Shown: positions 3,102 to 31,943, numbered from the stretch's first letter. The stretch: 64,000 nucleotides of DNA from Candidatus Dojkabacteria bacterium (GCA_050950165.1 JBMNHC010000001.1:453744-517743); one strand, 5' to 3'. Notes: generated by a model from the sequence alone, not told the origin. Translations and numbers: made by a program.

Positions 3102-3131
3102 TTAGGTTCTAATTCTTCAATTAAGAAAGAT

Positions 3132-3344
3132 ATGGCAAAAGTTTGTGAATTGTGTGGAAAATCTACAACTGCTGGAAAAAGTATTCAGCATCATCACGCT
3201 ATCAAGTGGCGATATCGAGCACCTAAGAGTACTCGTGCATTTAAACCTAATCTAAGAAAGATTAAGGTTGATTTGGATGGAAAAGTGCAGAGTATATATA
3301 CCTGTATGAAGTGCTACAAAAGGCTTCAGAAAGATTCAGAGTAG
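3132..3344 (+). CDS. rpmB: ribosomal protein L28
   Basis: MAKVCELCGK...H....R.....KPNL matches the L28 N-terminal pattern. 70 aa, basic. Confidence 0.7.
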   Translation: MAKVCELCGKSTTAGKSIQHHHAIKWRYRAPKSTRAFKPNLRKIKVDLDGKVQSIYTCMKCYKRLQKDSE

Positions 3345-3402
3345 GTATTGTAAAAATTTCCTCGTATTGAGTAAATATTAGTGATAGAATCATTTAAATA
3401 AA

Positions 3403-4473
3403 GTGACTTGTTTTTTTATGTCTATTTTTAACTCAATTTGGGAACTGTTTACATATGATTTAGGTATAGATTTGGGGACAGCCAATACCATGGTTTACCT
3501 AAGAGGAGAAGGTATTGTTGTTTCTGAACCATCAGTTGTTGCTGTCGAGAAAAAGAGTAAGATGGTACTTGCTGTAGGTCAAGAAGCAAGAGAGATGATA
3601 GGGAGAACGCCAGCTAATATTGTTGCAGTAAGACCACTGAAGGATGGAGTAGTTTCTGATTTTGATACTACACAGGCCATGATATATCATTTCATACGTA
3701 GTGCGCATAAAAACTACATTAAAGGTTTTAAGATTCCAAGACCAAGAGTTGTTGTAGGTGTCCCTTCTTCTGTATCAGAGGTAGAGAGACAAGCTGTAAT
3801 AGATGCAGCAAAAACTGCGGGAGCAAGAGACGTCTTCATTGTGGAAGAATCTATGGCAGCTGCAATTGGGGTAGGATTACCGATAGAGGATGCTTCAGGT
3901 AGTATGATAGTGGATATTGGAGGTGGTACTACTGGAATAGCGATTCTTTCATTAGGAGATATTGTTGTAGATAATACAGTTAGGATAGCTGGTGATGAGA
4001 TAACGCAGGATATCATTAACTATGTTAGAGATAAGTATAATATTTTGATAGGTGATAGGACTGCAGAAGATATTAAGATAGAGATAGGTTCTGCTTCTCC
4101 TCTTAAAGATGAGAAAGAGGTTGAATTACAAGGTAGAGATCTTTTAACTGGTCTTCCTAAGTCTATCAACTTTAGTAGTATTGAAGCTCGTGAAGCAATT
4201 ATGGTCTCACTAGGACAGATAACTGAGGCAGTAAAAGATGCAATAGAGGATACACCTCCAGAACTTCTTAAAGATATTTTTAATGATGGTGTGTATGTAG
4301 CAGGAGGTGGTGCACTCATTAAAGGATTAGATAAATATTGGGAGGAGGAGCTTAATATTCCAATTAAGATAGTTGATGATCCTCTCTCTGCAGTTGCTAG
4401 GGGAACTGCATCTATGTTAGATCATATAGATTTACTTCAGAAGGTACAGAAATCTTGGGAAGAACTTATTTAA
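3403..4473 (+). CDS. mreB: rod shape-determining actin homolog MreB
   Basis: DLGIDLGTANT phosphate-1 motif, VVSEPSVVA, DIGGGTTGIAILS phosphate-2, VAGGGALIKGLD. Start may be the internal Met at 3418. Confidence 0.9.
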   Translation: MTCFFMSIFNSIWELFTYDLGIDLGTANTMVYLRGEGIVVSEPSVVAVEKKSKMVLAVGQEAREMIGRTPANIVAVRPLKDGVVSDFDTTQAMIYHFIRSAHKNYIKGFKIPRPRVVVGVPSSVSEVERQAVIDAAKTAGARDVFIVEESMAAAIGVGLPIEDASGSMIVDIGGGTTGIAILSLGDIVVDNTVRIAGDEITQDIINYVRDKYNILIGDRTAEDIKIEIGSASPLKDEKEVELQGRDLLTGLPKSINFSSIEAREAIMVSLGQITEAVKDAIEDTPPELLKDIFNDGVYVAGGGALIKGLDKYWEEELNIPIKIVDDPLSAVARGTASMLDHIDLLQKVQKSWEELI

Positions 4474-4487
4474 CTCTCTATACCTAG

Positions 4488-5303
4488 ATGTTTAAAGAGA
4501 TATCTAAAAGAAAAATAGTACAACCTTTTCTGTTTCTCTTGTTAGGTTTTTTCTTTCTCTTTCTAAGTAAGTTTAGTTTACTTGATACTGTTCGTTTTGC
4601 ATTCTCATATATATTTGAACCATTTTCATCTGTAGCACATGAGTGGCAAGGGTCTGTTACTAATTGGGGCTCTCTTCTTCTAGATGCATCTTCATATATT
4701 GAGGAGAATAGGGAGCTTAAAGAGGAGATATTAGAGATAAGGAGTAGTCAGAGTAATATACTTAATGTAGAAGAGTATGAGATTTTAAAAAAACAGAAAG
4801 GAATTATACGAGGGGAAGATAGGTATGTTTTAGCCAAGGTATTGGGTCATTCAGATCATGGAGAGATATTTTTAAATGTTGGTATAGATGATGGTGTTAA
4901 AGAGGGAGATATTGTTTCTTTAGGGAATGTTTTTCTAGGTATTGTTTCTACTGCTGATAAAGAGGGGGCATTGGTAAAACTTCCGATTAGTAGAGATAGT
5001 AGTTTTGAAGTAGCAATTCTTCCTGCTACTGTAGAAAAAACAGTTGTTTTAGATGGATATATTAAATCTAAAGGTGTAATTACAGGTAATTTAGATGGAA
5101 TAAGGGTAGAGAATATAGGTATTAACTCTGAAGTAGTAGATGGTGATATTGTGATTTTAAGAGATGAGCGCGTAGGAGAGATTCTTGTAGTAGGTAGGGT
5201 AATTGGTCTTTCAAAAAATCCTGCTTCTACATCTAAAACAGGTTTTGTATCTCCTATATATGATTTTGTTAATTTAATATCTGTATTTGTTAAAGTAGAT
5301 TAA
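4488..5303 (+). CDS. mreC: rod shape-determining protein MreC (probable)
   Basis: Immediately follows mreB. N-terminal TM, coiled-coil region, then a beta-rich C-terminal domain with Gly/Val-rich motifs (GDIVSLGNVFLGIVS; GDIVIL). Called on synteny plus architecture. Confidence 0.55.
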   Translation: MFKEISKRKIVQPFLFLLLGFFFLFLSKFSLLDTVRFAFSYIFEPFSSVAHEWQGSVTNWGSLLLDASSYIEENRELKEEILEIRSSQSNILNVEEYEILKKQKGIIRGEDRYVLAKVLGHSDHGEIFLNVGIDDGVKEGDIVSLGNVFLGIVSTADKEGALVKLPISRDSSFEVAILPATVEKTVVLDGYIKSKGVITGNLDGIRVENIGINSEVVDGDIVILRDERVGEILVVGRVIGLSKNPASTSKTGFVSPIYDFVNLISVFVKVD

Positions 5304-5304
5304 T

Positions 5305-5802
5305 ATGATAGAGATATTGCTTGGTACAGTAGGTATATTTGGAGTAGTCTTTCTAGAACATTTCTTCTGGGGTATCTCTGGTCTCTCAATATTTTTTCTT
5401 TTAGCAGTAAATACATGGGGTAGAATAGATTCGAGAGTTTTTGCTGTCTTTGGAATTCTTACCTCTTTAGCACTAGATGTGGTAGCACATCAGCCTCTCG
5501 GTTTTCATCTTGTAATGTTAGGTATACTTCTGCTTCTTTACTCTGTAATTAGCAATTTTGCTCAACTGGAGGGTAGAGTTAGTAGATATGTAGGGCTTTT
5601 CTTACTGTTTCTTTCTCTCTACTTTTTAGATTTAATCGTGCTTTCTTTGGTAAGTAGTAGTACATTTCCTCTTTTTACCTCAAATATTGTATTAAAGATT
5701 TTACTTAATACAGTAATTTCTACAGTAATATGCTTTGTAATAGATTTACTGTTTTCTGGCTTTAGAGAAGGTAAAGGGTTTGAAAAGATTAGATTAAAGT
5801 AA
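5305..5802 (+). CDS. mreD: MreD-like small polytopic membrane protein (probable)
   Basis: 165-aa all-TM protein sitting between mreC and the PBP2 gene. Called on synteny. Confidence 0.45.
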   Translation: MIEILLGTVGIFGVVFLEHFFWGISGLSIFFLLAVNTWGRIDSRVFAVFGILTSLALDVVAHQPLGFHLVMLGILLLLYSVISNFAQLEGRVSRYVGLFLLFLSLYFLDLIVLSLVSSSTFPLFTSNIVLKILLNTVISTVICFVIDLLFSGFREGKGFEKIRLK

Positions 5803-13463: not shown

Positions 13464-14009
13464 ATGGATATTAATATATTTAAAACAAATATTCAGAAGT
13501 GTATAGATAACCTAGTAGAAGACCTCTCTCAGATTAGAACAGGGCGAGCTACTCCAGAGTTAATTCAAGATATTAATGTTAAAGCATACGGAACAGAAGC
13601 CCCTTTGAAAAACTATGCCACTATTAATATCTCAGATACTCGTTCTCTTCTTGTAACACCTTGGGACAAAGGTATAGTAGATAGTATTGTTAGTGGTATA
13701 TCTACTTCTAACTTAGGTTTTAGTGCATCAGTAGAGGGTGATCATATTAGAGTTAGTATTCCAGAGTTAACCGAAGAGAGAAGAAAAGAATATGTAAAGG
13801 TAATGAAGGATAGAATAGAGGATGCTAGAATTGCTGTTAGACAGGTTAGACAGAAATTTATGAAAGATATTGATGATTCTTTAGGTTCTGGATTTTCAGA
13901 AGATGATGCAGATAGATTAAGAGAAGAAGGAGAGAAGGTTGTTAAGGATGCAAATGGTAAAATAGAGGAGATAAAGGATAATAAAGAGAAAGACCTTATG
14001 TCATTTTAA
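13464..14009 (+). CDS. frr: ribosome recycling factor
   Basis: IRTGRATPELIQDINVKAYGTEAPLKNYATI...LTEERRKEYVK matches the RRF family along its full length. Confidence 0.9.
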   Translation: MDINIFKTNIQKCIDNLVEDLSQIRTGRATPELIQDINVKAYGTEAPLKNYATINISDTRSLLVTPWDKGIVDSIVSGISTSNLGFSASVEGDHIRVSIPELTEERRKEYVKVMKDRIEDARIAVRQVRQKFMKDIDDSLGSGFSEDDADRLREEGEKVVKDANGKIEEIKDNKEKDLMSF

Positions 14010-14020
14010 CCATTTTTACT

Positions 14021-15163
14021 ATGACCATATTAGTAAACATACTTCTTCTTCTTTTAGTAATTAGTCTTCTTACCTTCATACATGAGTTAGGTCATTTCTT
14101 AGCTGCTAAGATAGTAGGTGCTAAGGTCTTTGACTTCTCTGTGGGTTTCGGTCCTAAAATATTCTCAAAGAGAATAGGGGATACTACATACAACTTAAGA
14201 GTTTTACCATTCGGTGGTTTTGTAAAGATATTAGGAGATGGAGATCCTACTGAAAAGAAAGAGGATTTAAAGGATAAAGGTAATCTTAAAAACAAGAGTA
14301 AGCTATCTCAGATATTTGTAATGCTTGCAGGAGTATCTATGAATATGCTCTTGGCAGTAGTTTTGTATACCGTCTTTCTCTCTTCTTCTGCTTGGAGACT
14401 AAATATTACTAGTGAGTACAAAGATTTTGATGCTACAGGAGCAGATGTCAAAATAGAGAGAGTTTCAGATCTACCATATGAACTACTAAAAGAGGGAGGT
14501 GCTGTAGAGTCAGGTATGTATGAAAAAGGATATATCAAGAGTGTTAATGGAGAGAGTATAGATGGGTTTGTAGAGTTTAAAGAGTATCTTTCTAACTTTA
14601 AAGAGAAGGTTGTTGATTTAGAGGTGTGTAGTGAAGATTTAGCAAGATGTGAGATATTCCCTACATCTGTAGATAAAGATGGTAGGGTAGGTATGTATAT
14701 TGGAGAGAATTATTCTGTGTTTATAGATTATTCAAACAACAAGATATTTTCTGGTTTTGCACATAGTGTAAATGTACTTAGGTTAACAGGTAAGGTATTA
14801 GGTACTCTTCTTTCACAAGCAAGGCAGAGTGGTGACTATTCTACTCTTTCAAATACAGTTAGTGGTCCTGTGGGTATATATTTTGTAGTAGACTATTTTA
14901 AAACGTTAGGTATATTTGTATTTTTAGGAATAATTGCAGATCTTTCTCTTTCATTAGCAATAATTAATCTTTTCCCTATACCTGCATTAGATGGGGGTAG
15001 GGCTATGATATTGTTAATAGAGAGTATTGTTAGGAGGGATTTAAATGAGAAGGTAGAGAGTATAATTATTAATATTAGTTTTGTTTTCTTAATTCTTCTA
15101 ATTATCGCTATTATGTTTAAAGATATTTTTAATATAAAAGAATTGCAGAGTTGGTTTAGATAG
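14021..15163 (+). CDS. rseP: RseP-like M50 site-2 protease with PDZ-like insert
   Basis: HELGHFLAAK (HExxH) in TM1, FPIPALDGG (LDG motif), and a central soluble insert. Confidence 0.8.
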   Translation: MTILVNILLLLLVISLLTFIHELGHFLAAKIVGAKVFDFSVGFGPKIFSKRIGDTTYNLRVLPFGGFVKILGDGDPTEKKEDLKDKGNLKNKSKLSQIFVMLAGVSMNMLLAVVLYTVFLSSSAWRLNITSEYKDFDATGADVKIERVSDLPYELLKEGGAVESGMYEKGYIKSVNGESIDGFVEFKEYLSNFKEKVVDLEVCSEDLARCEIFPTSVDKDGRVGMYIGENYSVFIDYSNNKIFSGFAHSVNVLRLTGKVLGTLLSQARQSGDYSTLSNTVSGPVGIYFVVDYFKTLGIFVFLGIIADLSLSLAIINLFPIPALDGGRAMILLIESIVRRDLNEKVESIIINISFVFLILLIIAIMFKDIFNIKELQSWFR

Positions 15164-15333
15164 TATATCTTTTAAGTAAGAATATTTATTTACTGCTCTA
15201 ATGGCTATAAGATTAAATAAAACAACAAAGATAATACTTGCAATAGTAATATTAATTCTTTCTGTTGCTCTAGGTTATTTAATATGGAGAATTAATCAAC
15301 CAGAGAGATTAGATCCTACAGATAGTGATGCGG
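15143..15333 (+). repeat. 5' conserved unit of the tandem surface-protein cassette (copy 1). It overlaps the last 7 codons of rseP, the leader, and the signal-anchor coding region.
   Basis: 191 nt with a single mismatch to 17002..17192. Confidence 0.85.
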
Positions 15334-16985
15334 CATATCCTACTTGTCCAGGGGGGTGTAATTGGAATGTTGGGTTACAGGAGTGTATTGGAGGAAGGGG
15401 ATGTGTAAGTGTTTCAAGCACTGGATGTCCTAGTGGATTGGTTCTTAAGGGACATGTGTGTTGTGAAGAATGTACATCAAATGAACCTCCTGGTGAATGT
15501 GTGTACTACCCTGAAAGAAAAGTTCCTAATTGTCCAAATTGTGCTAAGGGATACTATAGTTGTTCTAAAGGGGTTTGTCAGCCCTGCCAACCTGATGCGG
15601 AGGGGCTAACTCTTGATGTTTGTAGATCCAGAGCCGATAGTAGGAATGGTGTGACAGTACCAGAATTGTGTAAAAAATCTCTTTCCTATTGGGGTTGTAG
15701 TCAGAGAAAAGATAATCCAGAACTATACGATTTAATTCAGATTCCTTGTAAAGATGAACCCCCTTCTGAACCAGACTGTGGAGAAGATTTGGAACCTAAG
15801 TCATTTGCGTTTAATAAGGCTAATACTGATGCTAGTAAGATAGGACCGTTTCCTGAAGATGGTAAAGTAGTATTCTTTTTTAAGAGTTTGTTGCCTGATG
15901 TAGCAGGAGGTGGTCCATATAGACCTAAAATATCATTTAAGGTAGTAAGTACTGATAGTACGAGGAATGGACAAACATATGTATACACACCCTCTGCTGA
16001 TGAAGAGAGGAAGGAGACAATCTTCGCTATTAAAGAAGGAGAGTATTTACTCTTAACAGACTCGGATGACAACAATAATCAGGGAAGTCCTGAGTGCGCT
16101 CCTACTGAGAATAATCCTAAATACAAATCTTTTGGATGGATAGCACCTAGTGGTGGTTTGTGTGGTTCAGGTCTGTTAGGTCCTCCTACTGAGGGTAATA
16201 GAGTGCCATATGACAAACCAAGTATTGCTGCGTTTAGAAGCAAGTCTGTGAGTCAAGGGTATAAAGAACTTCCTAAGGGAGAGCAGTGTTGGGCAGACTG
16301 GAGAGAGTGGCCTGGAGACTACGACTTTAATGATTACTTCTTAATGGTCTCATATGTTACAGAACCTAAATCTCTTCTAACTGCAGATATATCTGTAGAA
16401 AAAAGTGCAATTGAGTCATGTATAAATGAAGAAACAGAAAATCCAGAAGCAGAGTTAGCATATTCAATAACCATTACAAACAAAGGAGGAGTAGCAGGTA
16501 CTGTATCGAAAGTGGTGGATACATTAGATAGTAAGGTTGTAGCAGGGTCTGTATCTTCAATATCTGATTCAGGTTCTTACTCTGAAGGAAAAATTACTTG
16601 GAACTTTACTCCTGCTTTGAGTCTTGATGCCAATGGGGGTAAAAAGGTATTAACGTACAAAGTAAAAGTTGCAAAAGAAAATTTTGGTGAATACAAAAAT
16701 GTTGTGGTAGTGACAACCTCTACGGGAGAAGTGACTGCAGAGTACAGTATTGTTGCAGATTGTATAATTACAACACCAGATACACCAGATAAACCTGGAG
16801 AGAAAGTACCTCAAACAGGTCTCTTTGATCTAGTTCTTTCTAGAATAGCTGCAGGTGTAATATTAGTAATATTCGGTGTCTTTGTATACAACATACCTAA
16901 TACAGTATTTACTTTTCATTATCGTAAGAAGAAAATATCATATAAATATAGAGAAAAGTTTGAAAAGAGAATGACAGGTAATTAG
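15201..16985 (+). CDS. Cys-rich cell-surface protein, paralog A (signal-anchor, Cys-rich ectodomain, DUF11-like repeat domain, VPQTG sortase-like C-terminal sorting signal)
   Basis: N-terminal MAIRLNKTTKIILAIVILILSVALGYLIW. 40+ Cys in the first ~350 aa. AELAYSITITNKGGVAGTVSKVVDTLDSKV resembles the DUF11/conserved-repeat domain. C-terminus KVPQTGLFD, hydrophobic helix, then basic tail HYRKKK. Confidence 0.7.
   Translation: MAIRLNKTTKIILAIVILILSVALGYLIWRINQPERLDPTDSDAAYPTCPGGCNWNVGLQECIGGRGCVSVSSTGCPSGLVLKGHVCCEECTSNEPPGECVYYPERKVPNCPNCAKGYYSCSKGVCQPCQPDAEGLTLDVCRSRADSRNGVTVPELCKKSLSYWGCSQRKDNPELYDLIQIPCKDEPPSEPDCGEDLEPKSFAFNKANTDASKIGPFPEDGKVVFFFKSLLPDVAGGGPYRPKISFKVVSTDSTRNGQTYVYTPSADEERKETIFAIKEGEYLLLTDSDDNNNQGSPECAPTENNPKYKSFGWIAPSGGLCGSGLLGPPTEGNRVPYDKPSIAAFRSKSVSQGYKELPKGEQCWADWREWPGDYDFNDYFLMVSYVTEPKSLLTADISVEKSAIESCINEETENPEAELAYSITITNKGGVAGTVSKVVDTLDSKVVAGSVSSISDSGSYSEGKITWNFTPALSLDANGGKKVLTYKVKVAKENFGEYKNVVVVTTSTGEVTAEYSIVADCIITTPDTPDKPGEKVPQTGLFDLVLSRIAAGVILVIFGVFVYNIPNTVFTFHYRKKKISYKYREKFEKRMTGN
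16748..16904 (+). repeat. 3' conserved unit of the tandem surface-protein cassette (copy 1). Encodes IVADCIITTPDTPDKPGEKVPQTGLFD...VILVIFGVFVYNIPNT.
   Basis: 157 nt with 2 mismatches to 18448..18604. Confidence 0.85.
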
Positions 16986-17001
16986 GGTTTTAGATATTAA
17001 G

Positions 17002-17192
17002 TTGCAGAGTTAGTTTAGATAGTATATCTTTTAAGTAAGAATATTTATTTACTGCTCTAATGGCTATAAGATTAAATAAAACAACAAAGATAATACTTGC
17101 GATAGTAATATTAATTCTTTCTGTTGCTCTAGGTTATTTAATATGGAGAATTAATCAACCAGAGAGATTAGATCCTACAGATAGTGATGCGG
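17002..17192 (+). repeat. 5' conserved unit of the tandem surface-protein cassette (copy 2)
   Basis: Near-identical to 15143..15333, including the TTGCAGAGTT boundary. Confidence 0.85.
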
Positions 17193-18673
17193 GAGGTGGT
17201 TTTTCTAATGAACGGTGCAGAAAGAACAGCTGTAGTTGTAAAGATAAAAACGGGAATAGTATAACCTGTGAAAAGTATAATGAGGGGAATCCTGAGAATA
17301 AATGTTATCACCACATATGTAAAGATAGTAATGGCAATACTCTAGGAGGGGTTTTCTCGACAAACTCTGATTCAGATTCCGCGTGTCGCGATTGTGGATT
17401 TGATACAAAACCAAAAGAGGAAGGAGGAGAGTGTAATTTTGGGTCAGAATGTGCTGCTTGTCCTTGGCCAAAGGTAGCAAACTGTTCTAATCACAAATGT
17501 GGATGTATCCTTCCAGATCAAATACCTGCAGATCAATTACAATGTGGTTCTATAACACCATGTAATCCTCCAGCATGTCCTCAAGGAATGGTAGATTGTG
17601 GTACTTCTGCAGATAGTGAGGATAAAACAGGTTGTTCTGCTCAGGGATCGTGTATTGCTGAGTGTACAATATGTAAGAATAAATCTATAATATTTAGACA
17701 TTGTAAAGCTGCACCTACAAATGTTTGTGATGGAGGTAGTTGGATAGATAAACCTAGTGGTAATATTGACTATGGTAAGAGTATAACCTTTAGTGCTAAA
17801 GCTAAAGATTCAGATGGTATTAAGAGAGACAGTATTGTAGTTAAAAAAGGAACAGAAACATTATCCGAATGTAGTGGTGTAGAGAGTGTAAATTGTATTA
17901 AGTTAACAGAAGCAGCTACAGAGACAACTATTAGTGGAACATTAAGTACCCCTTCTAAGCAGTTAGCACCAGGTAACTATACTATCTCTATGAGCTGGAA
18001 AGACAAGAAAGATGTTGGTGGAGAAGCATGTGCATTAACTACATCTTTTGTAGTACTTGAAAAGCAAACTAATCCTGATTGGGAGATCTCTAAGTCTGTG
18101 GTAGAGCAATGTATTGATGATAGTACAGAAGATCCCAAAGCAGAGTTAACGTATACCATTGCTATTAAAAATACAGGAGATGGAGCGGGTCAGATATCCA
18201 AGATAGAGGATGTATTGGATGATAAGGTTCAAAGTAGCTTTGTTCAATCATCTTCTATTACCCCTCCAGGTAAATATGAGGGTGGAAAGATTATCTGGGA
18301 TTACATATCTTCCCCTCTCTCACTAGCAGCTGGAGAAAGTAAGGTATATACGTATAAGATACTTTTGGATAAAGAAAATTTTGAAACATATAGTAACACT
18401 GCAACATTGACTCCTGTAGGTTCTCCTTCTCTTTCTTCTTCTGCAAATATTGTTGCAGATTGTATAATTACAACACCAGATACACCAGATAAACCTGGAG
18501 AGAAAGTACCTCAAACAGGTCTCTTTGATTCAGTTCTTTCTAGAATAGCTGCAGGTGTAATATTAGTAATATTCGGTGTCTTTGTATACAACATACCTAA
18601 TACAATGTTTGCTAGTAAAGAACCATCCTACAAGTATAGAGATAGATTTGAAAGAAAAGTAGCAAACAGGTAA
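17060..18673 (+). CDS. Cys-rich cell-surface protein, paralog B (same architecture, different ectodomain)
   Basis: The first 44 aa and last ~52 aa are identical to paralog A. The middle has a different Cys pattern (CRKNSCSCKDKNGNSITC...). DUF11-like AELTYTIAIKNTGDGAGQISKIEDVLDDKV. C-terminus KVPQTGLFD + TM + basic tail. Confidence 0.7.
   Translation: MAIRLNKTTKIILAIVILILSVALGYLIWRINQPERLDPTDSDAGGGFSNERCRKNSCSCKDKNGNSITCEKYNEGNPENKCYHHICKDSNGNTLGGVFSTNSDSDSACRDCGFDTKPKEEGGECNFGSECAACPWPKVANCSNHKCGCILPDQIPADQLQCGSITPCNPPACPQGMVDCGTSADSEDKTGCSAQGSCIAECTICKNKSIIFRHCKAAPTNVCDGGSWIDKPSGNIDYGKSITFSAKAKDSDGIKRDSIVVKKGTETLSECSGVESVNCIKLTEAATETTISGTLSTPSKQLAPGNYTISMSWKDKKDVGGEACALTTSFVVLEKQTNPDWEISKSVVEQCIDDSTEDPKAELTYTIAIKNTGDGAGQISKIEDVLDDKVQSSFVQSSSITPPGKYEGGKIIWDYISSPLSLAAGESKVYTYKILLDKENFETYSNTATLTPVGSPSLSSSANIVADCIITTPDTPDKPGEKVPQTGLFDSVLSRIAAGVILVIFGVFVYNIPNTMFASKEPSYKYRDRFERKVANR
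18448..18604 (+). repeat. 3' conserved unit of the tandem surface-protein cassette (copy 2)
   Basis: Matches 16748..16904. Confidence 0.85.
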
Positions 18674-18721
18674 AATTGTATGATATAATCCAAACGCTTT
18701 AATTTGAAGGAGGTAAACCCC

Positions 18722-18922
18722 ATGGCAGTAATAGTTCATGCCAATGAAAATATAGATAGTGCTCTTAAAAGACTTCACAGAGAAGTAATGAGAGAGAAGA
18801 TTTTAGAAACATACAGAGAGAAAGCTTACAGAAGTAAGAAAGCTGACTTAGCTATCCAAAAGAGAAGAGAGTGGGCTAAAATGAAAAGAAGAAGAAGAAC
18901 TGCTGCAAGAAGGGCTAGGTAA
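18722..18922 (+). CDS. rpsU: ribosomal protein S21
   Basis: MAVIVHANENIDSALKRLHREV...RRRTAARRAR. A GGAGGT Shine-Dalgarno sits 8 nt upstream of the ATG at 18722. Confidence 0.85.
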   Translation: MAVIVHANENIDSALKRLHREVMREKILETYREKAYRSKKADLAIQKRREWAKMKRRRRTAARRAR

Positions 18923-18939
18923 ATTTTTACTTTTAATAT

Positions 18940-19383
18940 ATGTCCCTTTTAGAAGATATTCGCAAAGATATGTTTAGTGCTAGTAAGCAGGGTATATCTG
19001 CTGAAGTAGATATACTTAAGATGGCTCTTGCAGAGATTAAAAATGAGGAGATTAAAAAAGGTGAAAGTCTTTCTGATGATGAAGTCATTAAAGTCTTAAG
19101 AAGAGAGAGTAAAAAGATTGAAGATTCCATTGTTGAATTTACTAAAGCAGGAAGAGAAGATCTTGTTGTAAAAGAAAAAGCTCAATTTGATATCTTACAA
19201 AAATATCTACCAGCACTTTTGGATGAATCTAAGATAGAGGCTGTAGTTAAAGATGTAATATCTAAAATTGGTGCAGAAGGAATGAGAGATATGGGTAGAG
19301 TAATGGGTACTGTAATGAAAGAGTTAGAAGGTCAAGCAGATGGTAGAGTTGTTAAAGAAATTGTTCAGAAGCATCTTTCATAA
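18940..19383 (+). CDS. yqeY: GatB/YqeY-domain protein
   Basis: Full-length similarity to YqeY (MSLLE..DM....K...........V.................LSD.E.......E.KK..DS..EF...........K.......YLP). Confidence 0.8.
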   Translation: MSLLEDIRKDMFSASKQGISAEVDILKMALAEIKNEEIKKGESLSDDEVIKVLRRESKKIEDSIVEFTKAGREDLVVKEKAQFDILQKYLPALLDESKIEAVVKDVISKIGAEGMRDMGRVMGTVMKELEGQADGRVVKEIVQKHLS

Positions 19384-19826
19384 TGGAAGATATTTCAGTA
19401 GAGATATTTAATAGTGAATTGGTTTTAGAAATAGAGCCTACATTTAGTATCCCTTTTAGTGAGATAGAGAGAGCATACAAGAAAATATTTTCTAAATATG
19501 CTCTTAAGGATATTAATATTGTCTTTGTTAAATCTGAATATATTCAAGAGTTGAATAGACAGTACAGAGGAATAGATGCACCTACAGACGTTCTCTCATT
19601 TGAGATGGAGAGTAAGGTTAGTGGAGAGATATATATCTGTCCTGAATATATATATCTTACATTTCAAGAAACTCTCTTTGAAGAAGAGATACTCAGATTG
19701 ATAATTCATGGTACACTACATATATTAGGATATGACCATTTAGAGAGTATGAATGACTCTGTAGATGAACAGATGTTTAAAATACAGGAAGAATTACTTT
19801 TAAAGTTTAAACAGTTATGTTTTTAA
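19383..19826 (+). CDS. ybeY: rRNA maturation endoribonuclease YbeY
   Basis: HGTLHILGYDH zinc-binding motif; ~147 aa. Confidence 0.8.
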   Translation: MEDISVEIFNSELVLEIEPTFSIPFSEIERAYKKIFSKYALKDINIVFVKSEYIQELNRQYRGIDAPTDVLSFEMESKVSGEIYICPEYIYLTFQETLFEEEILRLIIHGTLHILGYDHLESMNDSVDEQMFKIQEELLLKFKQLCF

Positions 19827-20371
19827 TAGTAGGTTTAGGAAATGTTGGTAAGGAGTATATAGATACACCACACAACAGTGGATTTCTCTTTTTGGATATC
19901 TTAAGAGAAAGACTCTTGGATATATCTTCGTTACAGGTATCTGAGTGGATTAATGAAAAAAAACTTTTTCAATCTGAAATATGTAAGATTAAAAGAGATG
20001 GAGAAGTAATATTTTTACTTCAAAAACCTCTTACATATATGAATAGGTCTGGAGATGCAGTAAGAATGATAGTTGAGAAATTTGCTCCTAAAAGTATCAT
20101 ACTAGCTCATGATGATTTAGATATCCTACTAGGTAGATACAAGATAGGGGTAGAAAAGTCTCCTAAGGGTCACAGAGGCGTATTAAGTGTAGAAGAGGGT
20201 ATAGGGAGGAAGGATTTCTTAAGGGTGAGAATAGGGGTAGATAACAGAGGAGAGAGAGAGATCCCTGGTGAAGAGTATGTACTACAGAGATGTTCAGATG
20301 CAGAGCTTTCTGCTCTAACAGTTAGTGTTAAAAATGCAGTAGAAGAGTTACTCTCTACTTTTGAACTTTAA
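19817..20371 (+). CDS. pth: peptidyl-tRNA hydrolase
   Basis: LIVGLGNVGKEYIDTPHNSGF matches the Pth N-terminal signature (GLGNPG..Y..TRHN.GF). Confidence 0.8.
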   Translation: MFLIVGLGNVGKEYIDTPHNSGFLFLDILRERLLDISSLQVSEWINEKKLFQSEICKIKRDGEVIFLLQKPLTYMNRSGDAVRMIVEKFAPKSIILAHDDLDILLGRYKIGVEKSPKGHRGVLSVEEGIGRKDFLRVRIGVDNRGEREIPGEEYVLQRCSDAELSALTVSVKNAVEELLSTFEL

Positions 20372-21560
20372 TCTTACAATCTGTGTAATATTTAGATATC
20401 TCTTCTAAGGTATGTATTCTTACTCTCTTGTCTTCTTTCATTACAATTCCTACCTCTTCACTGTTTAAGAATATTCCAATATTTACAATCTCATCTTCTT
20501 TTAGAACAAAGAATAGAGAACCTGATGTAGTATTGTTGTTTAACTCATCTAGTAGGTTTTCCTTTGCAAGATATTCATAGAGTAGTCTGTCATATTTAAT
20601 ATCTACTCTGTATCCTTCAATGTTATACTCTTTGTGTGCAAAATCCTTTAGTACTGGCTCTATCACCATATTCTGATTTAAATATGCTTGGGATATTAAT
20701 CTGTATGAGTTTGTTGCTCCATATCTGTATTTAATCTCTTCCCAAAGATTTTCTCTGTTTGTTGTAAGACTTTTTGTATTTAAGATTTCATAGATATCTT
20801 CTACTAGTTTCTGTTTATTTGCATTTAAGATATTTCCTCTACCGTTATTTTTTGTATCGTAGTCCTTGTAATCGATAACGGTATCAAAATCACTATCATA
20901 TATTGTATGACCATCTTCTTTGTAAAGTATCTTGTTGTAAGTATTTTTGTTCATATACATGGTAAATGGAAGGATTAAAAGAGAGAGAGCTATGAGAGAG
21001 AGTAGGCAATATTTAAAGAATTTACTCTTTTTAAAAAAATATTTATACAGTAAAAAGAGAAAAAAAGAAATTATTACTATCTCTACAGCAAAAGATGGAG
21101 TAGAGAAATATTGGGCGAAGTAGTTCTGTCCAAAAATATTTCCTAAAAGAGTAATCTCTAGTCTAAGAGGTTGAAATATTTGAGAGGAGGAGAAGATAAT
21201 ATCTCCTAGAAGGTGTGAGAGTGTACCAATTAAGAATGAATTAATTAATATTGTAATGACTTTTCTGTTTAAGAGGAGTCTAAAATCTTTGTTAGCAAGC
21301 CTTTTTAGTAAAGCTAAGAGTAATTTTAGAAATACCCAGAGAGATACCCATAGGGGTATAGAGTGTGTGATTACTTGGTGATGAAGAAAAGTAGGTATAT
21401 TACTCATCGTGAGTACGAAGATATCAAAGTCTGGTAATATACCGAAAAAGAAAGAGAGAAGAATTACTGCAGTATGTTCTGCCTTAGTTAATTTCGATAT
21501 CTCTTTTTTCTGTACTACTTCATTTAGTAGTACACTTAAAGGTCCATGAGCTATATACAT
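20355..21560 (-). CDS. YdjM/DUF457-like membrane-bound metal-dependent hydrolase fused to a ~200-aa C-terminal soluble domain
   Basis: The N-terminal half has the YdjM-type pattern (PDFD; HHQVITHSIPLW; HLLGDIIF) across about 7 TM helices. The C-terminal half is hydrophilic and unassigned. Confidence 0.45.
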   Translation of the reverse strand: MYIAHGPLSVLLNEVVQKKEISKLTKAEHTAVILLSFFFGILPDFDIFVLTMSNIPTFLHHQVITHSIPLWVSLWVFLKLLLALLKRLANKDFRLLLNRKVITILINSFLIGTLSHLLGDIIFSSSQIFQPLRLEITLLGNIFGQNYFAQYFSTPSFAVEIVIISFFLFLLYKYFFKKSKFFKYCLLSLIALSLLILPFTMYMNKNTYNKILYKEDGHTIYDSDFDTVIDYKDYDTKNNGRGNILNANKQKLVEDIYEILNTKSLTTNRENLWEEIKYRYGATNSYRLISQAYLNQNMVIEPVLKDFAHKEYNIEGYRVDIKYDRLLYEYLAKENLLDELNNNTTSGSLFFVLKEDEIVNIGIFLNSEEVGIVMKEDKRVRIHTLEEISKYYTDCKIKVQK

Positions 21561-28027: not shown

Positions 28028-28927
28028 ATGAATACACAGTCTACATCTACAATATCAATAGAGAGGGATGAAGAGCAGAGAGTAGGTAAGGTACTTCTTT
28101 CTAATGGTTGGTCTGAAGAGGTAGATAGAAATGAGTATGTAAAAGCAAGGTACAGGAGTCCTTTAGGTTCTGTTGCAATACTGTATAGTAGTGGTAAGTT
28201 GGTATTTCAGGGTAAGCAAGATTTTAATTCTTTAATATTAGATATTAAACAGGAATCTTCAGAAGAGAGTTCTTCTTTTGTAGACCATATTGGAGTAGAT
28301 GAGGTAGGTAAAGGAGATTACTTTGGTCCTCTAGTTGTAGTTAGTTGTTTTGTAGATAGAGAGTTTGAAAAAAGAATCTCTCTTTTAGGGTTTGGAGATT
28401 CTAAGAGGTTTTCGGATAGGAAGATATTAGAACTTTTTAAAGAGATAGAGGAGTATCCTTACTACTTTAGCTCTGTAGTTGTACCTGCTGAGTACAACAG
28501 ATTAGTACTGGAGTATGGTAATGTTGCTGTACTACTTGCAAAGCAGCATAGTATTGTAATAGAGAAGGGGCTTTCTAAATTAAAATTAGATGGAGTGGAG
28601 TGTAAGCGAGTGGTAATAGATCAGTTTTCTTCGTCAAAAGATAGGGTAAGAAAAGAGTTAGGAGAGTTGGGTAGTAGGGTAGAGTTAATTCAATTTCACA
28701 AAGGTGAGTCAGATCTAGCTGTAGCTGCAGCTTCTATAATAGCGAGAGCCATATTTTTAAAAGAGTGGGAGAAGATGAATGAGAGATATGATTTAGTATT
28801 TCCTAAGGGTGCAACTAGTGTAGTAGAGTTTGGTAAGGAGTTTGTATCTAAGTATGGTGAAGATGAGCTTAGGAATGTAGCAAAGATTGGATTTAGAACA
28901 ACAGATGAGATATTAAAACTCTTTTAG
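28028..28927 (+). CDS. rnhC: ribonuclease HIII-like (RNase HII-family catalytic domain with N-terminal extra domain)
   Basis: HIGVDEVGKGDYFGPLVVV catalytic DEVG(R/K)G motif preceded by an ~85-aa N-domain containing ...SGKLVFQGK, typical of RNase HIII. Confidence 0.7.
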   Translation: MNTQSTSTISIERDEEQRVGKVLLSNGWSEEVDRNEYVKARYRSPLGSVAILYSSGKLVFQGKQDFNSLILDIKQESSEESSSFVDHIGVDEVGKGDYFGPLVVVSCFVDREFEKRISLLGFGDSKRFSDRKILELFKEIEEYPYYFSSVVVPAEYNRLVLEYGNVAVLLAKQHSIVIEKGLSKLKLDGVECKRVVIDQFSSSKDRVRKELGELGSRVELIQFHKGESDLAVAAASIIARAIFLKEWEKMNERYDLVFPKGATSVVEFGKEFVSKYGEDELRNVAKIGFRTTDEILKLF

Positions 28928-29805
28928 TTTTTCTTCTTATCTTCTTTCAAGGATTTAATAAGTAGTACTGTAGTTATGGATATTGATAGTAGGATTATTA
29001 ATTCTACTGTATAGCTATTTATTGTTGTTTCTGTATTTATACTTGTACTATCTAGTCCACTAGAGAAGTTACCGATAGCTACTCTCTTGTAGAGTATGTC
29101 TGAAATATGCCACTGTTTTACAGTTAATTCTTCTTGTAAGCTATCTTTAGGGTAAAGTTTTTTAGAGTCTCTGTTTATAAAAAGGTATTTAGGTTTGTAG
29201 TTTCCCTTACTATTAAACACTTCTATTCTTCCAATAGGGGCTAATACATAGTTAGAGTTATTCTGTATGGTATATTTAATTTTTAGTGGAGAGATGAACG
29301 GTATCCCTTTCTGAACGACATCTATCTTTGCTGTAAAGTCTGATGTAGTAATACCTTTAACTTGGTCATCTCTATCTACAATGTGTAGTACTACTAGTTG
29401 TGATACAGCCTTATTTATATACACGCTATCCTTCTCTGTTACCTCAGAGAGCACTAATATATTGAAGTAGGTTCCTTTTTCTAAGTTCTCAACAGGATAT
29501 ATTTCATAAGGTATTTCTTTTTTACTGTTTGCTTTAACAACAAATGTATCTGTATCTACCTTTAGAAAGATATTTTTACTATCTTTAATAATTTCATCAT
29601 CTTTATAGTTATAGTCATTTGTACTTAAGAGTATCTCAATATCTTTATCTTGAGTATTTTCGATAATAACGGAGCTTAGTTTTCTCTCTCCTTGTGATAG
29701 AGAGAGTTCATTTACTGCAGGAAAGAGAGTAGTAGCATGTACAGAAGATATACCCAGAAGGGTATAAAGGAATATTGATATACCGATTGTTTTGATTAGT
29801 TTCAT
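28924..29805 (-). CDS. surface-cluster protein 4: signal peptide + Ig-like ectodomain + C-terminal TM anchor (hypothetical)
   Basis: Signal peptide MKLIKTIGISIFLYTLLGISSVHA. C-terminal LIILLSISITTVLLIKSLKEDKKKN. Last gene of the 4-gene minus-strand operon. Confidence 0.5.
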   Translation of the reverse strand: MKLIKTIGISIFLYTLLGISSVHATTLFPAVNELSLSQGERKLSSVIIENTQDKDIEILLSTNDYNYKDDEIIKDSKNIFLKVDTDTFVVKANSKKEIPYEIYPVENLEKGTYFNILVLSEVTEKDSVYINKAVSQLVVLHIVDRDDQVKGITTSDFTAKIDVVQKGIPFISPLKIKYTIQNNSNYVLAPIGRIEVFNSKGNYKPKYLFINRDSKKLYPKDSLQEELTVKQWHISDILYKRVAIGNFSSGLDSTSINTETTINSYTVELIILLSISITTVLLIKSLKEDKKKN

Positions 29806-30764: not shown

Positions 30765-30774
30765 TATTTAACTA

Positions 30775-31857: not shown

Positions 31858-31943
31858 TTTTTAGGCAGATTAAATTTATGATTAAAATAGAAATTCTATC
31901 TACAGCTTATATACAGAATTTTATAATGTCAAGGGGTTTCAAT

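What the first reader, a model, noticed from the sequence alone, without database searches (positions are those of the whole stretch)
15143..18673. Tandem cassette of two Cys-rich surface-protein genes with near-identical flanks and divergent ectodomain-coding middles
A ~1.86-kb unit is tandemly duplicated. Its first 191 nt (15143-15333 vs 17002-17192) differ at one position. This stretch contains the last 7 codons of rseP, the leader, and the 44-aa signal-anchor coding region. Its last 157 nt (16748-16904 vs 18448-18604) differ at two positions; they encode IVADCIITTPDTPDKPGEKVPQTGLFD plus the TM anchor. Between the flanks, the ~1.3-1.4 kb encoding the Cys-rich ectodomain and DUF11-like domain is strongly diverged at both nucleotide and protein level, with different Cys spacing and different lengths (594 vs 537 aa). 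Flanks under near-perfect homogenisation around a hypervariable middle are the signature of a recombining variable surface antigen or adhesin cassette: gene conversion or unequal crossover can swap ectodomains while keeping export and anchoring signals. The duplication boundary (TTGCAGAGTT) lies inside the rseP stop region, so the duplication is recent or maintained. This could be a host- or phage-facing variable adhesin system in a putative episymbiont (inference).
Basis: seen in the sequence. Interest (0 to 1): 0.85.

Follow-up and report, generated by a model that had tools for sequence, protein, structure and literature searches.

The report
Swappable surface-adhesin gene slot in Dojkabacteria
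Two neighbouring genes for cell-surface, adhesin-like proteins in an uncultured ultra-small bacterium (Candidatus Dojkabacteria) share near-identical export and anchoring ends but have unrelated outer "heads", and related strains carry one head, the other, or both at the same chromosomal spot, so the shared ends most likely act as handles for swapping heads by ordinary recombination.

Summary
Window 15143-15333 and 17002-17192 match at 189 of 191 nt. Window 16748-16904 and 18448-18604 match at 155 of 157 nt. These are the only long repeats in the 64 kb.

The genes (A, 594 aa; B, 537 aa) lie between rseP and rpsU in a Candidatus Dojkabacteria genome. Each has an N-terminal signal/anchor, a Cys-rich head, one CLIPPER (DUF11) stalk domain, a Pro-rich linker and a VPQTG + TM + basic-tail signal that looks like a sortase sorting signal.

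The heads are not hypervariable. A and B are two old head families, each with full-length orthologues (33-61% identity) in other Dojkabacteria.

The rseP-[gene(s)]-rpsU slot was occupied in all 52 distinct complete slots surveyed: 42 with one gene, 8 with two, 2 that my motif parser did not resolve.

Strains with 98-99.8% identical flanks carry A only, B only, or both. The breakpoints fall at the same two places as the window's repeats. One single-gene form is exactly the tandem minus one unit, deleted through the 5' repeat.

A programmed antigen-switching system is not supported. Adhesin function and sortase anchoring remain inferences. I rate it a new variant of a known kind.

The parts
14021..15163 (+). 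rseP (M50 site-2 protease). This is the conserved upstream border of the slot. Its last 21 nt lie inside the 5' repeat.
   Evidence: Pfam Peptidase_M50, 3.7e-51. It is syntenic in nearly all related loci.
15143..15333 (+). 5' repeat, copy 1. It holds the last 7 codons of rseP, the 37-nt leader and codons 1-44 of gene A.
   Evidence: It differs from copy 2 at two positions.
15164..15200 (+). Leader between the rseP stop and the gene A start codon. It is nearly invariant across species and has no Shine-Dalgarno sequence.
   Evidence: Alignments. There is no Rfam hit and no significant promoter or terminator call.
15201..16985 (+). Gene A (594 aa), surface protein with an A-type head.
   Evidence: It is identical to P0001, a hypothetical protein of a Candidatus Dojkabacteria MAG.
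15201..15332 (+). Gene A codons 1-44: N-terminal signal/anchor (MAIRLNKTTK..LIWRINQPERLDPTDSDA).
   Evidence: The AF2 model has a helix at residues 7-31. The motif is conserved across the family.
15333..15767 (+). Gene A aa 45-189: Cys-rich, poorly conserved N-terminal part of the head.
   Evidence: Alignment A2. Much of this stretch has low pLDDT; block means of 39-50 at residues 91-130.
15768..16376 (+). Gene A aa 190-392: conserved A-head core domain (..QCWADWREWPGDYDFNDYF..). It has no Pfam family and is rare.
   Evidence: Invariant columns. No Pfam hit in any of 20 members. Only 50 clusters match in 1.84 billion representatives. The domain also occurs in differently built proteins such as P0040.
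16386..16760 (+). Gene A aa 396-520: CLIPPER (DUF11, PF01345) stalk domain.
16748..16913 (+). 3' repeat, copy 1. It covers the end of CLIPPER (IVADC), the Pro-rich linker, VPQTG and the hydrophobic segment.
16806..16820 (+). VPQTG motif of gene A (aa 536-540).
   Evidence: Read from the sequence. P537, T539 and G540 are invariant.
17002..17192 (+). 5' repeat, copy 2. It holds the relic of the rseP tail with its stop at 17020-17022, the leader at 17023-17059, and codons 1-44 of gene B.
17060..18673 (+). Gene B (537 aa), surface protein with a B-type head.
   Evidence: The closest cluster, P0026, is 98% identical and comes from an independent assembly.
17192..18079 (+). Gene B aa 45-340: B-type head, with about 27 of the gene's 29 Cys (C351 and C468 lie in the CLIPPER domain) and an Ig-like domain at about aa 225-335.
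   Evidence: Alignment A3 shows conserved Cys. Weak Big_7 / Big_3_5 hits. The AF2 model has pLDDT mostly 79-98 from about aa 130 (one 10-residue block at 73).
17272..17299 (+). Patch that differs between two near-identical strains: 13 of the 38 differences in 4.36 kb, changing B aa 71-80.
   Evidence: Comparison of the window with L001.
18080..18454 (+). Gene B aa 341-465: CLIPPER stalk domain.
18448..18613 (+). 3' repeat, copy 2.
18506..18520 (+). VPQTG motif of gene B (aa 483-487).
   Evidence: Read from the sequence. P484, T486 and G487 are invariant in 44 sequences.
18704..18922 (+). rpsU (ribosomal protein S21), the conserved downstream border of the slot.
   Evidence: Pfam Ribosomal_S21. 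Synteny.

Best explanation
What it is. The region is a conserved 'slot' between rseP and rpsU. Across the class Candidatus Dojkabacteria (Patescibacteria/CPR) this slot holds one, sometimes two, genes of a single modular surface-protein family.

Protein architecture. Each protein has, in order:
- an N-terminal signal/anchor (about 44 aa, ending ..P.DS[DE]A);
- a Cys-rich head of one of several unrelated types (A, B and others);
- one CLIPPER (DUF11, CnaA-like) stalk domain;
- a short Pro/Thr/Glu-rich linker;
- a C-terminal signal made of [VI]PxTG[IL]FD, a hydrophobic helix, and a basic tail that usually ends ..RFEKKVANR.

How the protein probably works (inferred). It is exported, its head is disulfide-bonded, a sortase-type transpeptidase processes it at VPQTG, and it is displayed on the cell as an adhesin or host-recognition protein.

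How the locus evolves. The shared 5' module (rseP tail, leader, signal codons) and 3' module (linker, sorting signal) serve as homology arms. RecA-type homologous recombination between them homogenises the ends of tandem copies (gene conversion). It also deletes or duplicates a unit (unequal crossover) and replaces the head-plus-stalk cassette with one from another strain or even another species.

The window strain. It carries the two-gene state (A then B), with recently homogenised ends.

Shown versus inferred. Shown here: the repeats, the architecture, the class-wide slot, the same-species A/B/A+B polymorphism with coincident breakpoints, and the mosaicism. Inferred: sortase processing, surface display, adhesin function, the selective agent (host range or phage/predator pressure), and the rate of rearrangement.
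For: Repeats and sharp boundaries.

Flank identity against background. The window pair is 99.2% identical in the first 132 nt. The family background is 68% at the median and 81% at the 95th percentile. The identity includes a synonymous site and non-coding DNA.

Patchiness. The cytoplasmic-tail codons that follow the 3' repeat are only about 53-67% identical. This argues for conversion patches, not a recent duplication of the whole unit.

Tandem confirmed. An independent assembly, L001, spans the junction.

Old head families. A and B each have their own full-length orthologues.

The slot. It was occupied in all 52 distinct complete slots: 42 with one gene, 8 with two, and 2 that my motif parser did not resolve.

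Same-species swaps.
- L012 (B only) vs L084 (A only): 99.8% identity over 4131 nt upstream and 98.9% over 4244 nt downstream. Identity breaks at gene nt 131 and 246 nt before the stop.
- L002-L005 (A only, four assemblies) vs L006 (B only): flanks 98-99% identical, with breaks at nt 132 and 231 nt before the stop.
- The window's own repeats end at nt 133 and start 238 nt before the stop.

Deletion through a repeat. L059 equals the tandem L058 minus the first unit, with the join inside the 99-nt 5' repeat.

Mosaics. Head and stalk types reassort (L008 vs L033). L057/L060 carry a roughly 2.6-kb segment that is about 100% identical to a lineage whose backbone is only about 70-75% identical, and this is seen in contigs from two samples. 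L007 shares 95.5% of its first 132 nt with L002 although their backbones are about 78% identical.

Ends track the genome. Identity of the termini follows rseP identity whatever the head type (Spearman about 0.6).

Literature. CLIPPER is an isopeptide-bonded stalk domain of fibrillar adhesins (bioRxiv 10.1101/2025.04.25.650565). Sortase occurs in more than half of CPR genomes, and MdbA-like disulfide oxidoreductases are enriched in CPR (PMC6744442).
Against: - No sortase gene was found. The 20 unannotated window proteins I scanned have none, and nothing sortase-like turned up in the roughly 900 kb held. Only 64 kb of a roughly 725-kb genome was visible.
- No curated NCBIfam C-terminal sorting-domain model, including LPXTG models, matches the C-terminus.
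- The long, conserved cytoplasmic tail is not typical of LPXTG signals.
- Cleavage of the N-terminal signal was not tested.
- Some single-gene contigs could in principle be assemblies that skipped a repeat unit. This is unlikely for contigs that run unbroken through both repeats in four independent assemblies, but it was not checked with reads.
- Flank homogenisation is not general. L025 shows little and L015 shows it only in the first ~100 nt, so conversion is episodic.
- No expression, localisation or binding data exist.
- Part of the 5' identity is also explained by strong selection on the leader, which is nearly invariant across species.
Confidence: 0.65

Rival explanations
1. Two ancient paralogues sit side by side. 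Their ends look alike only because the signal peptide and anchor are under strong purifying selection. Recombination plays no part.
For: The N- and C-terminal modules are conserved at protein level across the whole family. The leader is nearly invariant across species. The heads are old, separate families.
Against: Selection on the protein cannot produce 189/191 nt identity that includes a synonymous site. The family background for the same codons is 68% at the median and 81% at the 95th percentile. Other tandem pairs (L025, L015) show ordinary divergence in the same modules. Same-species A/B replacement with coincident breakpoints needs recombination.
Confidence: 0.08
2. The locus is a dedicated, high-frequency antigenic or phase-variation system: programmed gene conversion from silent cassettes, invertible DNA, or a diversity-generating retroelement.
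For: The ends are conserved around differing middles. The locus is polymorphic between close strains. A 28-nt patch in the B head carries 13 of the 38 differences between two near-identical strains.
Against: There are only two copies, and both are complete genes with the same leader. The 64 kb holds no further copies and no inverted repeats. No recombinase, invertase or reverse transcriptase was found among the neighbouring genes scanned. Head types are discrete and conserved across species. Two independent assemblies of the window strain show the same arrangement.
Confidence: 0.05
3. The tandem and/or the single-gene variants are metagenome assembly artefacts: chimeric or collapsed contigs joined through the conserved ends.
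For: Many contigs of this family break exactly at the slot (for example L007, L011, L019, L035, L048, L100). The near-identical ends are close in length to typical k-mers or reads. The L057 mosaic could be a chimera.
Against: The window's A-to-B junction is reproduced in an independent ENA assembly. The longest exact runs in the 5' repeat are about 86-90 nt, broken by two mismatches. The A-only state occurs in at least four independent assemblies, on contigs up to 88 kb that run through both modules without a break, and B-only occurs in a fifth. The L058/L015 tandem and the L057/L060 mosaic are each seen in two samples.
Confidence: 0.07
4. The proteins are not sortase substrates. They stay in the membrane through the C-terminal helix (and perhaps the N-terminal one), or another enzyme processes them. 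That enzyme could be the adjacent RseP-type intramembrane protease, or an unknown partner that recognises the conserved FEKKV tail.
For: No sortase was found in the sequence available. No LPXTG or other C-terminal sorting model matches. The extreme C-terminus (..RFEKKV..) is conserved even where the tail is long, which ordinary LPXTG signals do not show. rseP is the invariable upstream neighbour.
Against: The [VI]PxTG motif has invariant P, T and G. It sits a fixed few residues before a hydrophobic helix and a basic tail, downstream of a Pro-rich linker and an isopeptide-type stalk domain. This is the canonical layout of sortase substrates. The closest structural neighbours are sortase-anchored pilins and adhesins. 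Sortases are common in CPR (PMC6744442). The rseP neighbourhood is a block of housekeeping genes (frr, rseP, rpsU, yqeY, ybeY, pth), so adjacency alone is weak evidence.
Confidence: 0.15

Closest known systems
emm / emm-like genes (mrp-emm-enn) of the Streptococcus pyogenes mga regulon (from my own knowledge of the literature; not checked here)
   Same: One to three tandem paralogues sit at a fixed chromosomal locus. Signal-peptide and cell-wall-anchor coding ends are highly conserved, while the surface-exposed parts are dissimilar. Strains differ in gene number and type, and recombination between neighbours gives chimeras.
   Different: M proteins are coiled coils with a hypervariable tip. 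Here the heads are discrete Cys-rich globular or Ig-like domains on a CLIPPER stalk. The organism is an uncultured CPR bacterium, the slot lies between housekeeping genes with no regulator, and the sorting signal is a variant (VPQTG with a conserved FEKKV-type tail).
Sortase-anchored MSCRAMM adhesins and pilins of Gram-positive bacteria (ClfA, SdrD, Cnm, RrgB, BcpA, SpaC, PitA, EbpB)
   Different: No sequence-level membership: only the CLIPPER domain hits a Pfam model. The heads belong to no Pfam family. No sortase or pilus gene cluster lies nearby, and no pilin motif was tested.
CLIPPER (DUF11, PF01345) fibrillar adhesins (Costa et al., bioRxiv 10.1101/2025.04.25.650565; PDB 9IFR)
   Same: There is a Pfam hit above the cut-off and a fold match to 9IFR. 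The family has an invariant Lys, Asp and Asn at a spacing compatible with the isopeptide triad.
   Different: The proteins hold a single CLIPPER domain (two in L020/L063), not long tandem arrays. They are short (about 450-650 aa). The isopeptide bond was not verified.
Programmed surface-antigen variation by gene conversion (Neisseria pilE/pilS, Borrelia vlsE/vls cassettes, Mycoplasma vsa/vlp) (own knowledge)
   Same: Conserved ends flank variable, surface-exposed middles. Homologous recombination moves the middles.
   Different: There are no silent donor cassettes and no array. Both copies are complete genes, and the head types are few and evolutionarily old. The variation is seen between strains, not shown within a clone.

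Membership tests
CLIPPER / DUF11 domain (PF01345) | Match to the Pfam model above the gathering score | tested here: met
   Gene A scores 33.1 bits and gene B 30.6 bits against a cut-off of 24.6. The model is hit in 19 of 20 A-type and 33 of 33 B-type relatives.
CLIPPER / DUF11 domain (PF01345) | CnaA-like Ig fold matching the solved CLIPPER structure | tested here: met
CLIPPER / DUF11 domain (PF01345) | Lys-Asp/Glu-Asn triad that forms the intramolecular isopeptide bond | tested here: inconclusive
   In B numbering, K345, D384/D387 and N446 are invariant in 44 sequences. The spacing is similar to K715/D748/N806 of 9IFR. No residue-level alignment to 9IFR could be obtained, and model coordinates could not be inspected.
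Sortase substrate (LPXTG-type cell-wall sorting signal) | xPxTG pentapeptide near the C-terminus | tested here: met
   VPQTG is present in both genes. P, T and G are invariant, and position 1 is V/I (rarely T, Q, A, L or P) across 83 distinct C-termini.
Sortase substrate (LPXTG-type cell-wall sorting signal) | Hydrophobic segment followed by a positively charged tail | tested here: met
   The sequence reads ..SRIAAGVILVIFGVFVY.. and then a K/R-rich tail. AF2 models a helix at residues 545-592 (A) and 492-516 (B). The tail is unusually long and ends in a conserved RFEKKV-type motif.
Sortase substrate (LPXTG-type cell-wall sorting signal) | N-terminal Sec signal peptide | tested here: inconclusive
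   The N-terminus has a basic n-region and a 19-residue hydrophobic helix. No signal-peptide predictor was available, and the cleavage site is unknown.
Sortase substrate (LPXTG-type cell-wall sorting signal) | Match to a curated LPXTG-anchor or other C-terminal sorting-domain model | tested here: not met
   NCBIfam gives no hit for the full proteins. For the isolated C-termini the only hit is E = 0.059, far below cut-off.
Sortase substrate (LPXTG-type cell-wall sorting signal) | A sortase gene in the same genome | not testable with these tools
   Only 64 kb of a 724,554-bp contig is visible. None was found among the 20 window proteins scanned or in the ~900 kb of held loci. Sortase is reported in more than half of CPR genomes (PMC6744442).
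Programmed antigenic variation by silent-cassette gene conversion | Array of promoterless or truncated donor cassettes plus one expression site | tested here: not met
   There are two complete ORFs with identical leaders, and no further copies in 64 kb.
Invertible-DNA phase variation (shufflon / invertase) | Inverted repeats flanking the switch, and a site-specific recombinase | tested here: not met
   There are no inverted repeats of 45 nt or more in the window. The short, weak ones in 14000-20000 are at chance level. No recombinase was found among the neighbours.
Diversity-generating retroelement | Template/variable repeat pair and a reverse transcriptase | tested here: not met
   The only repeats are the two flank pairs. 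No RT was found among the scanned neighbours.

The most novel reading that the evidence does not exclude
The rseP-rpsU slot is the main host-recognition (or phage/predator-facing) determinant of Dojkabacteria. It works as a natural plug-and-play display system. A nearly invariant leader, a signal module and a new sortase-like C-terminal signal (VPxTG..FEKKV) are kept constant and double as recombination handles. Head-plus-stalk cassettes, built from domain families found almost nowhere else, are exchanged within and between species and so re-target the cell to new partners.
Probability: 0.3. Interest if true: 0.75.

Novelty: new variant of a known kind. Interest (0 to 1): 0.58.

Why it matters
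How ultra-small CPR/Patescibacteria recognise and attach to their partners is largely unknown. According to the abstract of PMC12206443, all cultivated members are episymbionts and the molecular basis of host binding remains largely unknown.

This locus offers a concrete, class-wide candidate. It is a core-genome slot that was occupied in every complete locus surveyed. The protein it encodes has an adhesin-like build. Its outward-facing head differs between strains that are otherwise 98-99.8% identical around the slot.

That makes several hypotheses testable. Head type should correlate with partner organism or with phage pressure. Head swaps should follow the conserved modules.

The locus also defines three things that current curated libraries do not hold: a probable new C-terminal sorting-signal variant, and two or more new head-domain families.

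If the function turns out to be mundane, for example a structural wall protein, the locus is still a clean natural example of concerted evolution of the ends with replacement of the middle.

Tried and rejected
- An exact 35-mer of the window's 5' module was searched in metagenome contigs to find strain variants of this species. It gave no matches.
- A profile of the 60-90-aa C-terminal signal was searched against the 5.8-billion-protein set to find other substrates. Nothing reached E <= 0.001, because the profile is too short.
- The afdb50 fold library was unavailable.
- Foldseek against PDB for model A returned only generic beta-sandwich matches with low TM-scores, which say nothing about the A head.
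- PDB sequence searches with the B-type profile and with a CLIPPER-only profile found no relevant relative, so the isopeptide triad could not be aligned to 9IFR.
- An Rfam scan of 14800-19100 found no family.
- The promoter/terminator consensus scan gave no more sites than shuffled sequence.
- Sortase hunt. Pfam scans of 20 unannotated window proteins found none. A regex search and a phmmer search over all ORFs of the ~900 kb held also found nothing.
- The supplements of the Meheust 2019 paper did not give the sortase status of Dojkabacteria.
- A DUF4114-like identity for the GDYDFND motif, a lead from memory, was not supported by any Pfam hit.
- The DGR, invertase and silent-cassette readings were rejected for lack of their defining parts.

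Full report
**1.

A repeat search of 14000-20000 finds two long direct repeats. One is 15143-15333 vs 17002-17192 (191 nt, 99%). The other is 16748-16913 vs 18448-18613 (166 nt, 97%). Over the full 64 kb these are the only direct repeats of at least 45 nt, and there are no inverted repeats.

The 5' pair differs at two positions, not one. These are 15153 G/A, in the duplicated rseP tail, and 15242 A/G, a synonymous Ala codon change.

Between the repeats, a global alignment in 60-column blocks shows about 20-50% identity over the head region. That means no real homology. Identity is about 60-67% over the last ~400 nt before the 3' repeat.

The ORFs are 15201-16985 (594 aa, gene A) and 17060-18673 (537 aa, gene B). 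Upstream is an M50 protease, rseP. Downstream is ribosomal protein S21, rpsU. The repeat starts 21 nt before the rseP stop, so the last 7 rseP codons and the 37-nt leader are duplicated in front of gene B.

BLASTP of A against B gives 44/45 identities at the N-terminus, 51% over the last ~230 residues, and nothing significant in between.

An independent ENA contig (L001) is 99.1% identical to window 16087-20445. It carries the 3' part of A, then B, then rpsU. The tandem junction is therefore not a one-off assembly error.

**2. What the genes encode**

Gene A is identical to a hypothetical protein of a Candidatus Dojkabacteria MAG on a 724,554-bp contig. Window G+C is 35%.

Both proteins hit Pfam DUF11 (PF01345) above the gathering score. 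Costa et al. renamed this domain CLIPPER and showed it to be a CnaA-like, isopeptide-bonded stalk domain of fibrillar adhesins (bioRxiv 10.1101/2025.04.25.650565).

AlphaFold2 models built from family alignments are confident over the head core and the CLIPPER domain. Model A has mean pLDDT 72.7, and most 10-residue blocks from residue 200 to 520 are above 80. Model B has mean pLDDT 79.1, and its block means from about residue 130 are mostly 79-98 (one block at 73).

The C-terminus reads ..TPDTPDKPGEK-VPQTG-LFD.. This is followed by a hydrophobic stretch and a K/R-rich tail. In an alignment of 44 family members, P, T and G of the motif are invariant. Across 83 distinct C-termini the pattern is [VI]PxTG[IL]FD, a helix, and a basic tail that nearly always ends ..[RK]FE[KR]K[VI]...

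This is the layout of a sortase sorting signal, and I read it as one. Four caveats apply:
- no curated NCBIfam sorting-domain model matches;
- the conserved end of the tail is atypical;
- I found no sortase in the sequence I could see;
- only 64 kb of the genome was visible.

Sortases are reported in more than half of CPR genomes. MdbA-like disulfide oxidoreductases, which would suit Cys-rich secreted heads, are CPR-enriched (PMC6744442).

The N-terminal 44 residues (basic stretch, 19-residue hydrophobic helix, then ..WR[VI]NQ....P.DS[DE]A) are also conserved family-wide.

The heads have no Pfam family.
- The A-head core (aa 190-392, with an invariant QCWADWREWPGDYDFND motif) matches only 50 clusters among 1.84 billion representative proteins. 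It also occurs in differently built proteins.
- The B head has 27-31 Cys in most orthologues, several of them conserved, and an Ig-like domain.

**3. The heads are old families, not hypervariable sequence**

Gene A has full-length relatives at 36-61% identity. Gene B has its own set at 33-61%, plus a 98% cluster. Hits of one type match the other gene only over the shared CLIPPER domain and termini.

It does not dispose of the recombination idea.

**4. The slot is class-wide**

A scan of one genome per species gave 43 loci and a scan of metagenome contigs gave 53. Nearly all show frr-rseP-[family gene(s)]-rpsU-yqeY-ybeY-pth.

Of 52 distinct complete slots:
- 42 hold one family gene; in 7 of these an additional ~1000-1100-aa Cys-rich protein follows;
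- 8 hold two family genes;
- 2 were not parsed by my motif rule but still show head and CLIPPER homology.

Head types include A, B and several others with 35-45 Cys.

**5. Close strains differ in what fills the slot, and the breakpoints coincide with the window's repeats**

| Comparison | Flank identity | Where identity breaks |
|---|---|---|
| L012 (B only) vs L084 (A only) | 99.8% over 4131 nt upstream; 98.9% over 4244 nt downstream | gene nt 131; 246 nt before the stop |
| L002-L005 (A only) vs L006 (B only) | 98-99% | gene nt 132; 231 nt before the stop |
| Window repeats | - | 5' repeat ends at gene nt 133; 3' repeat starts 238 nt before the stop |

L002-L005 come from four independent assemblies, on contigs up to 88 kb.

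In a third lineage, L015/L058 carry a tandem (an A-like gene, then B). L059 has B only and L085/L088 have the A-like gene only. Flank identities among these contigs are 94-99%. L059 is exactly L058 minus the first unit, with the join inside the 99-nt 5' repeat. This is the product expected from crossover between direct repeats.

Modules also reassort. L008 combines an A head with a B-like CLIPPER. L033, whose flanks are 95-97% identical to L008's, has an A head with an A-type CLIPPER. L007, again with 95-97% identical flanks, has a B cassette.

L057/L060 come from two samples. Their backbone is ~100% identical to the L058 lineage, but a ~2.6-kb segment (the 3' part of rseP plus the cassette) is ~100% identical to the L056 lineage. 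The L056 backbone is only ~70-75% identical to theirs. L007 shares 95.5% of its first 132 nt with L002, although their backbones are ~78% identical.

Across all locus pairs, identity of the N- and C-terminal modules tracks rseP identity even when the head types differ (Spearman about 0.6).

**6. Gene conversion in the window**

The family background for the first 132 nt is 68% at the median and 81% at the 95th percentile. For the 3' 165 nt it is 60% and 70%. The window pair stands at 99.2% in the first 132 nt and 155/157 in the 3' core.

Two mismatches break the 5' repeat into exact runs of about 86-90 nt. My own arithmetic gives the chance of such a run as about 1e-8 per start position at 81% identity.

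The tail codons just after the 3' repeat are only ~53-67% identical, and the two stop-proximal regions differ in length. The identity is therefore patchy. That fits conversion or crossover tracts, not a recent duplication of the whole unit.

Homogenisation is episodic. In L015 only the first ~100 nt of the genes are (near-)identical. In L025 neither end is homogenised.

Part of the 5' identity has a second cause. The leader between the rseP stop and the ATG (TATATCTTTTAAGTAAGAA.ATTTATTTACTGCTCTA) is nearly invariant among species whose coding DNA is ~75% identical. It lacks a Shine-Dalgarno sequence and has no Rfam match. The consensus scan flags no promoter there.

**7. Small-scale variation**

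The window and L001 differ at 38 positions in 4.36 kb. Thirteen of these lie in 17272-17299, which encodes B residues 71-80. All 11 amino-acid differences in gene B lie in its head. This hints at a variable exposed loop, but it rests on two strains only.

**8. Mechanism and rivals**

My best reading is a modular, probably sortase-anchored adhesin-like family at a fixed core-genome slot. The constant ends act as homology arms for conversion, deletion or duplication, and cassette replacement.

The rivals, each weaker than the best reading:
- Pure purifying selection fails on synonymous and non-coding identity, and on the same-species swaps.
- A programmed switching system lacks silent cassettes, inverted repeats, a recombinase and DGR parts.
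- Assembly artefact is countered by independent assemblies of the tandem, of the single-gene states and of the mosaic. It still deserves a read-level check, because many contigs break at this slot.
- A non-sortase fate of the C-terminus is the most serious open rival (about 0.15), for the four reasons listed in section 2.

**9. Comparison with known systems**

Functionally and evolutionarily, the closest analogue I know is the emm/emm-like locus of Streptococcus pyogenes. This comparison rests on my own knowledge and was not checked here. That locus has one to three tandem paralogues with conserved leader and anchor ends and dissimilar exposed parts, and strains differ in gene content.

Architecturally the proteins resemble MSCRAMM adhesins and pilins with a CLIPPER stalk. 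Membership is established only for the CLIPPER domain.

The heads, the sorting-signal variant, the invariant leader and the class-wide slot next to rseP are not described in the libraries or papers I could search.

**10. Verdict**

The feature is real. It is wrong on 'hypervariable' and incomplete on the anchor.

I rate it a new variant of a known kind, with moderate-to-good interest. The locus is a concrete candidate for host or phage interaction in an uncultured CPR class, and it gives clear, cheap next tests.

Noticed in passing
window 15164-15200 and 17023-17059; also L002, L008, L012, L014, L021, L027 and others, upstream of the family gene: The 37-nt leader, together with the last rseP codons, is nearly invariant across species whose coding DNA is about 75% identical. 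It has no Shine-Dalgarno sequence, whereas rpsU next door has AAGGAGG. It may be a promoter, a translation element or another cis element.
   Followed up: partly
L034 7393-10686, L036 7408-10734, L037 7488-~10400, L039 4036-6957; also L086, L089, L092-L094, L096: In some clades an extra protein of about 1000-1100 aa lies between the family gene and rpsU. It has 46-59 Cys and an N-terminal TM helix (..LWQFFQNKKISxGLxGVY..) but no VPxTG signal.
   Followed up: partly
L057 and L060 (about 3100-5700) compared with L056 and L058: The contig is a mosaic. The backbone is ~100% identical to one lineage, while the 3' part of rseP plus the cassette is ~100% identical to another lineage whose backbone is only ~70-75% identical. 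It is seen in two samples. It is either inter-species recombination or a recurrent chimera.
   Followed up: partly
window 17272-17299 (gene B aa 71-80): Thirteen of the 38 differences between the window and a 99.1%-identical strain (L001) cluster here. Nearly all change the protein, and one is a 1-codon deletion.
   Followed up: partly
window 28924-33143 (- strand): Four consecutive genes encode secreted proteins (293, 320, 360 and 399 aa) with no Pfam family. One has a weak WxL-interacting-protein peptidoglycan-binding hit (E = 0.0045). They may form another surface-protein cluster.
   Followed up: no
window 2436-3101 (- strand): A second, short (221 aa) M50-type peptidase gene lies in the same 64 kb as rseP.
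   Followed up: no
window 40786-42639 (- strand): A 617-aa protein with a signal peptide and a transglutaminase-like core domain.
   Followed up: no
L040 4862-5962: rseP is split into three ORFs in this MAG. This could be frameshifts, a pseudogene or sequencing errors. The sister genome L041 has it intact.
   Followed up: no
L020/L063/L064 (652-aa gene) and L016 (375-aa gene): Two architectural variants of the B type exist. One has two CLIPPER domains. The other lacks the Cys-rich N-terminal part of the head (5 Cys).
   Followed up: no
L050 3275-4702 (UBA5749); also L044, L051, L052: Some genomes carry further family members away from the rseP-rpsU slot, or contigs without rseP/rpsU next to them. 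The family is therefore not strictly confined to the slot.
   Followed up: no
window 16914-16985 vs 18614-18673: The internal copy (A) has a tail that departs from the family consensus (..FEKRMTGN, where the consensus is ..FEKKVANR). The copy next to rpsU (B) keeps the consensus. L015 shows the same asymmetry.
   Followed up: no
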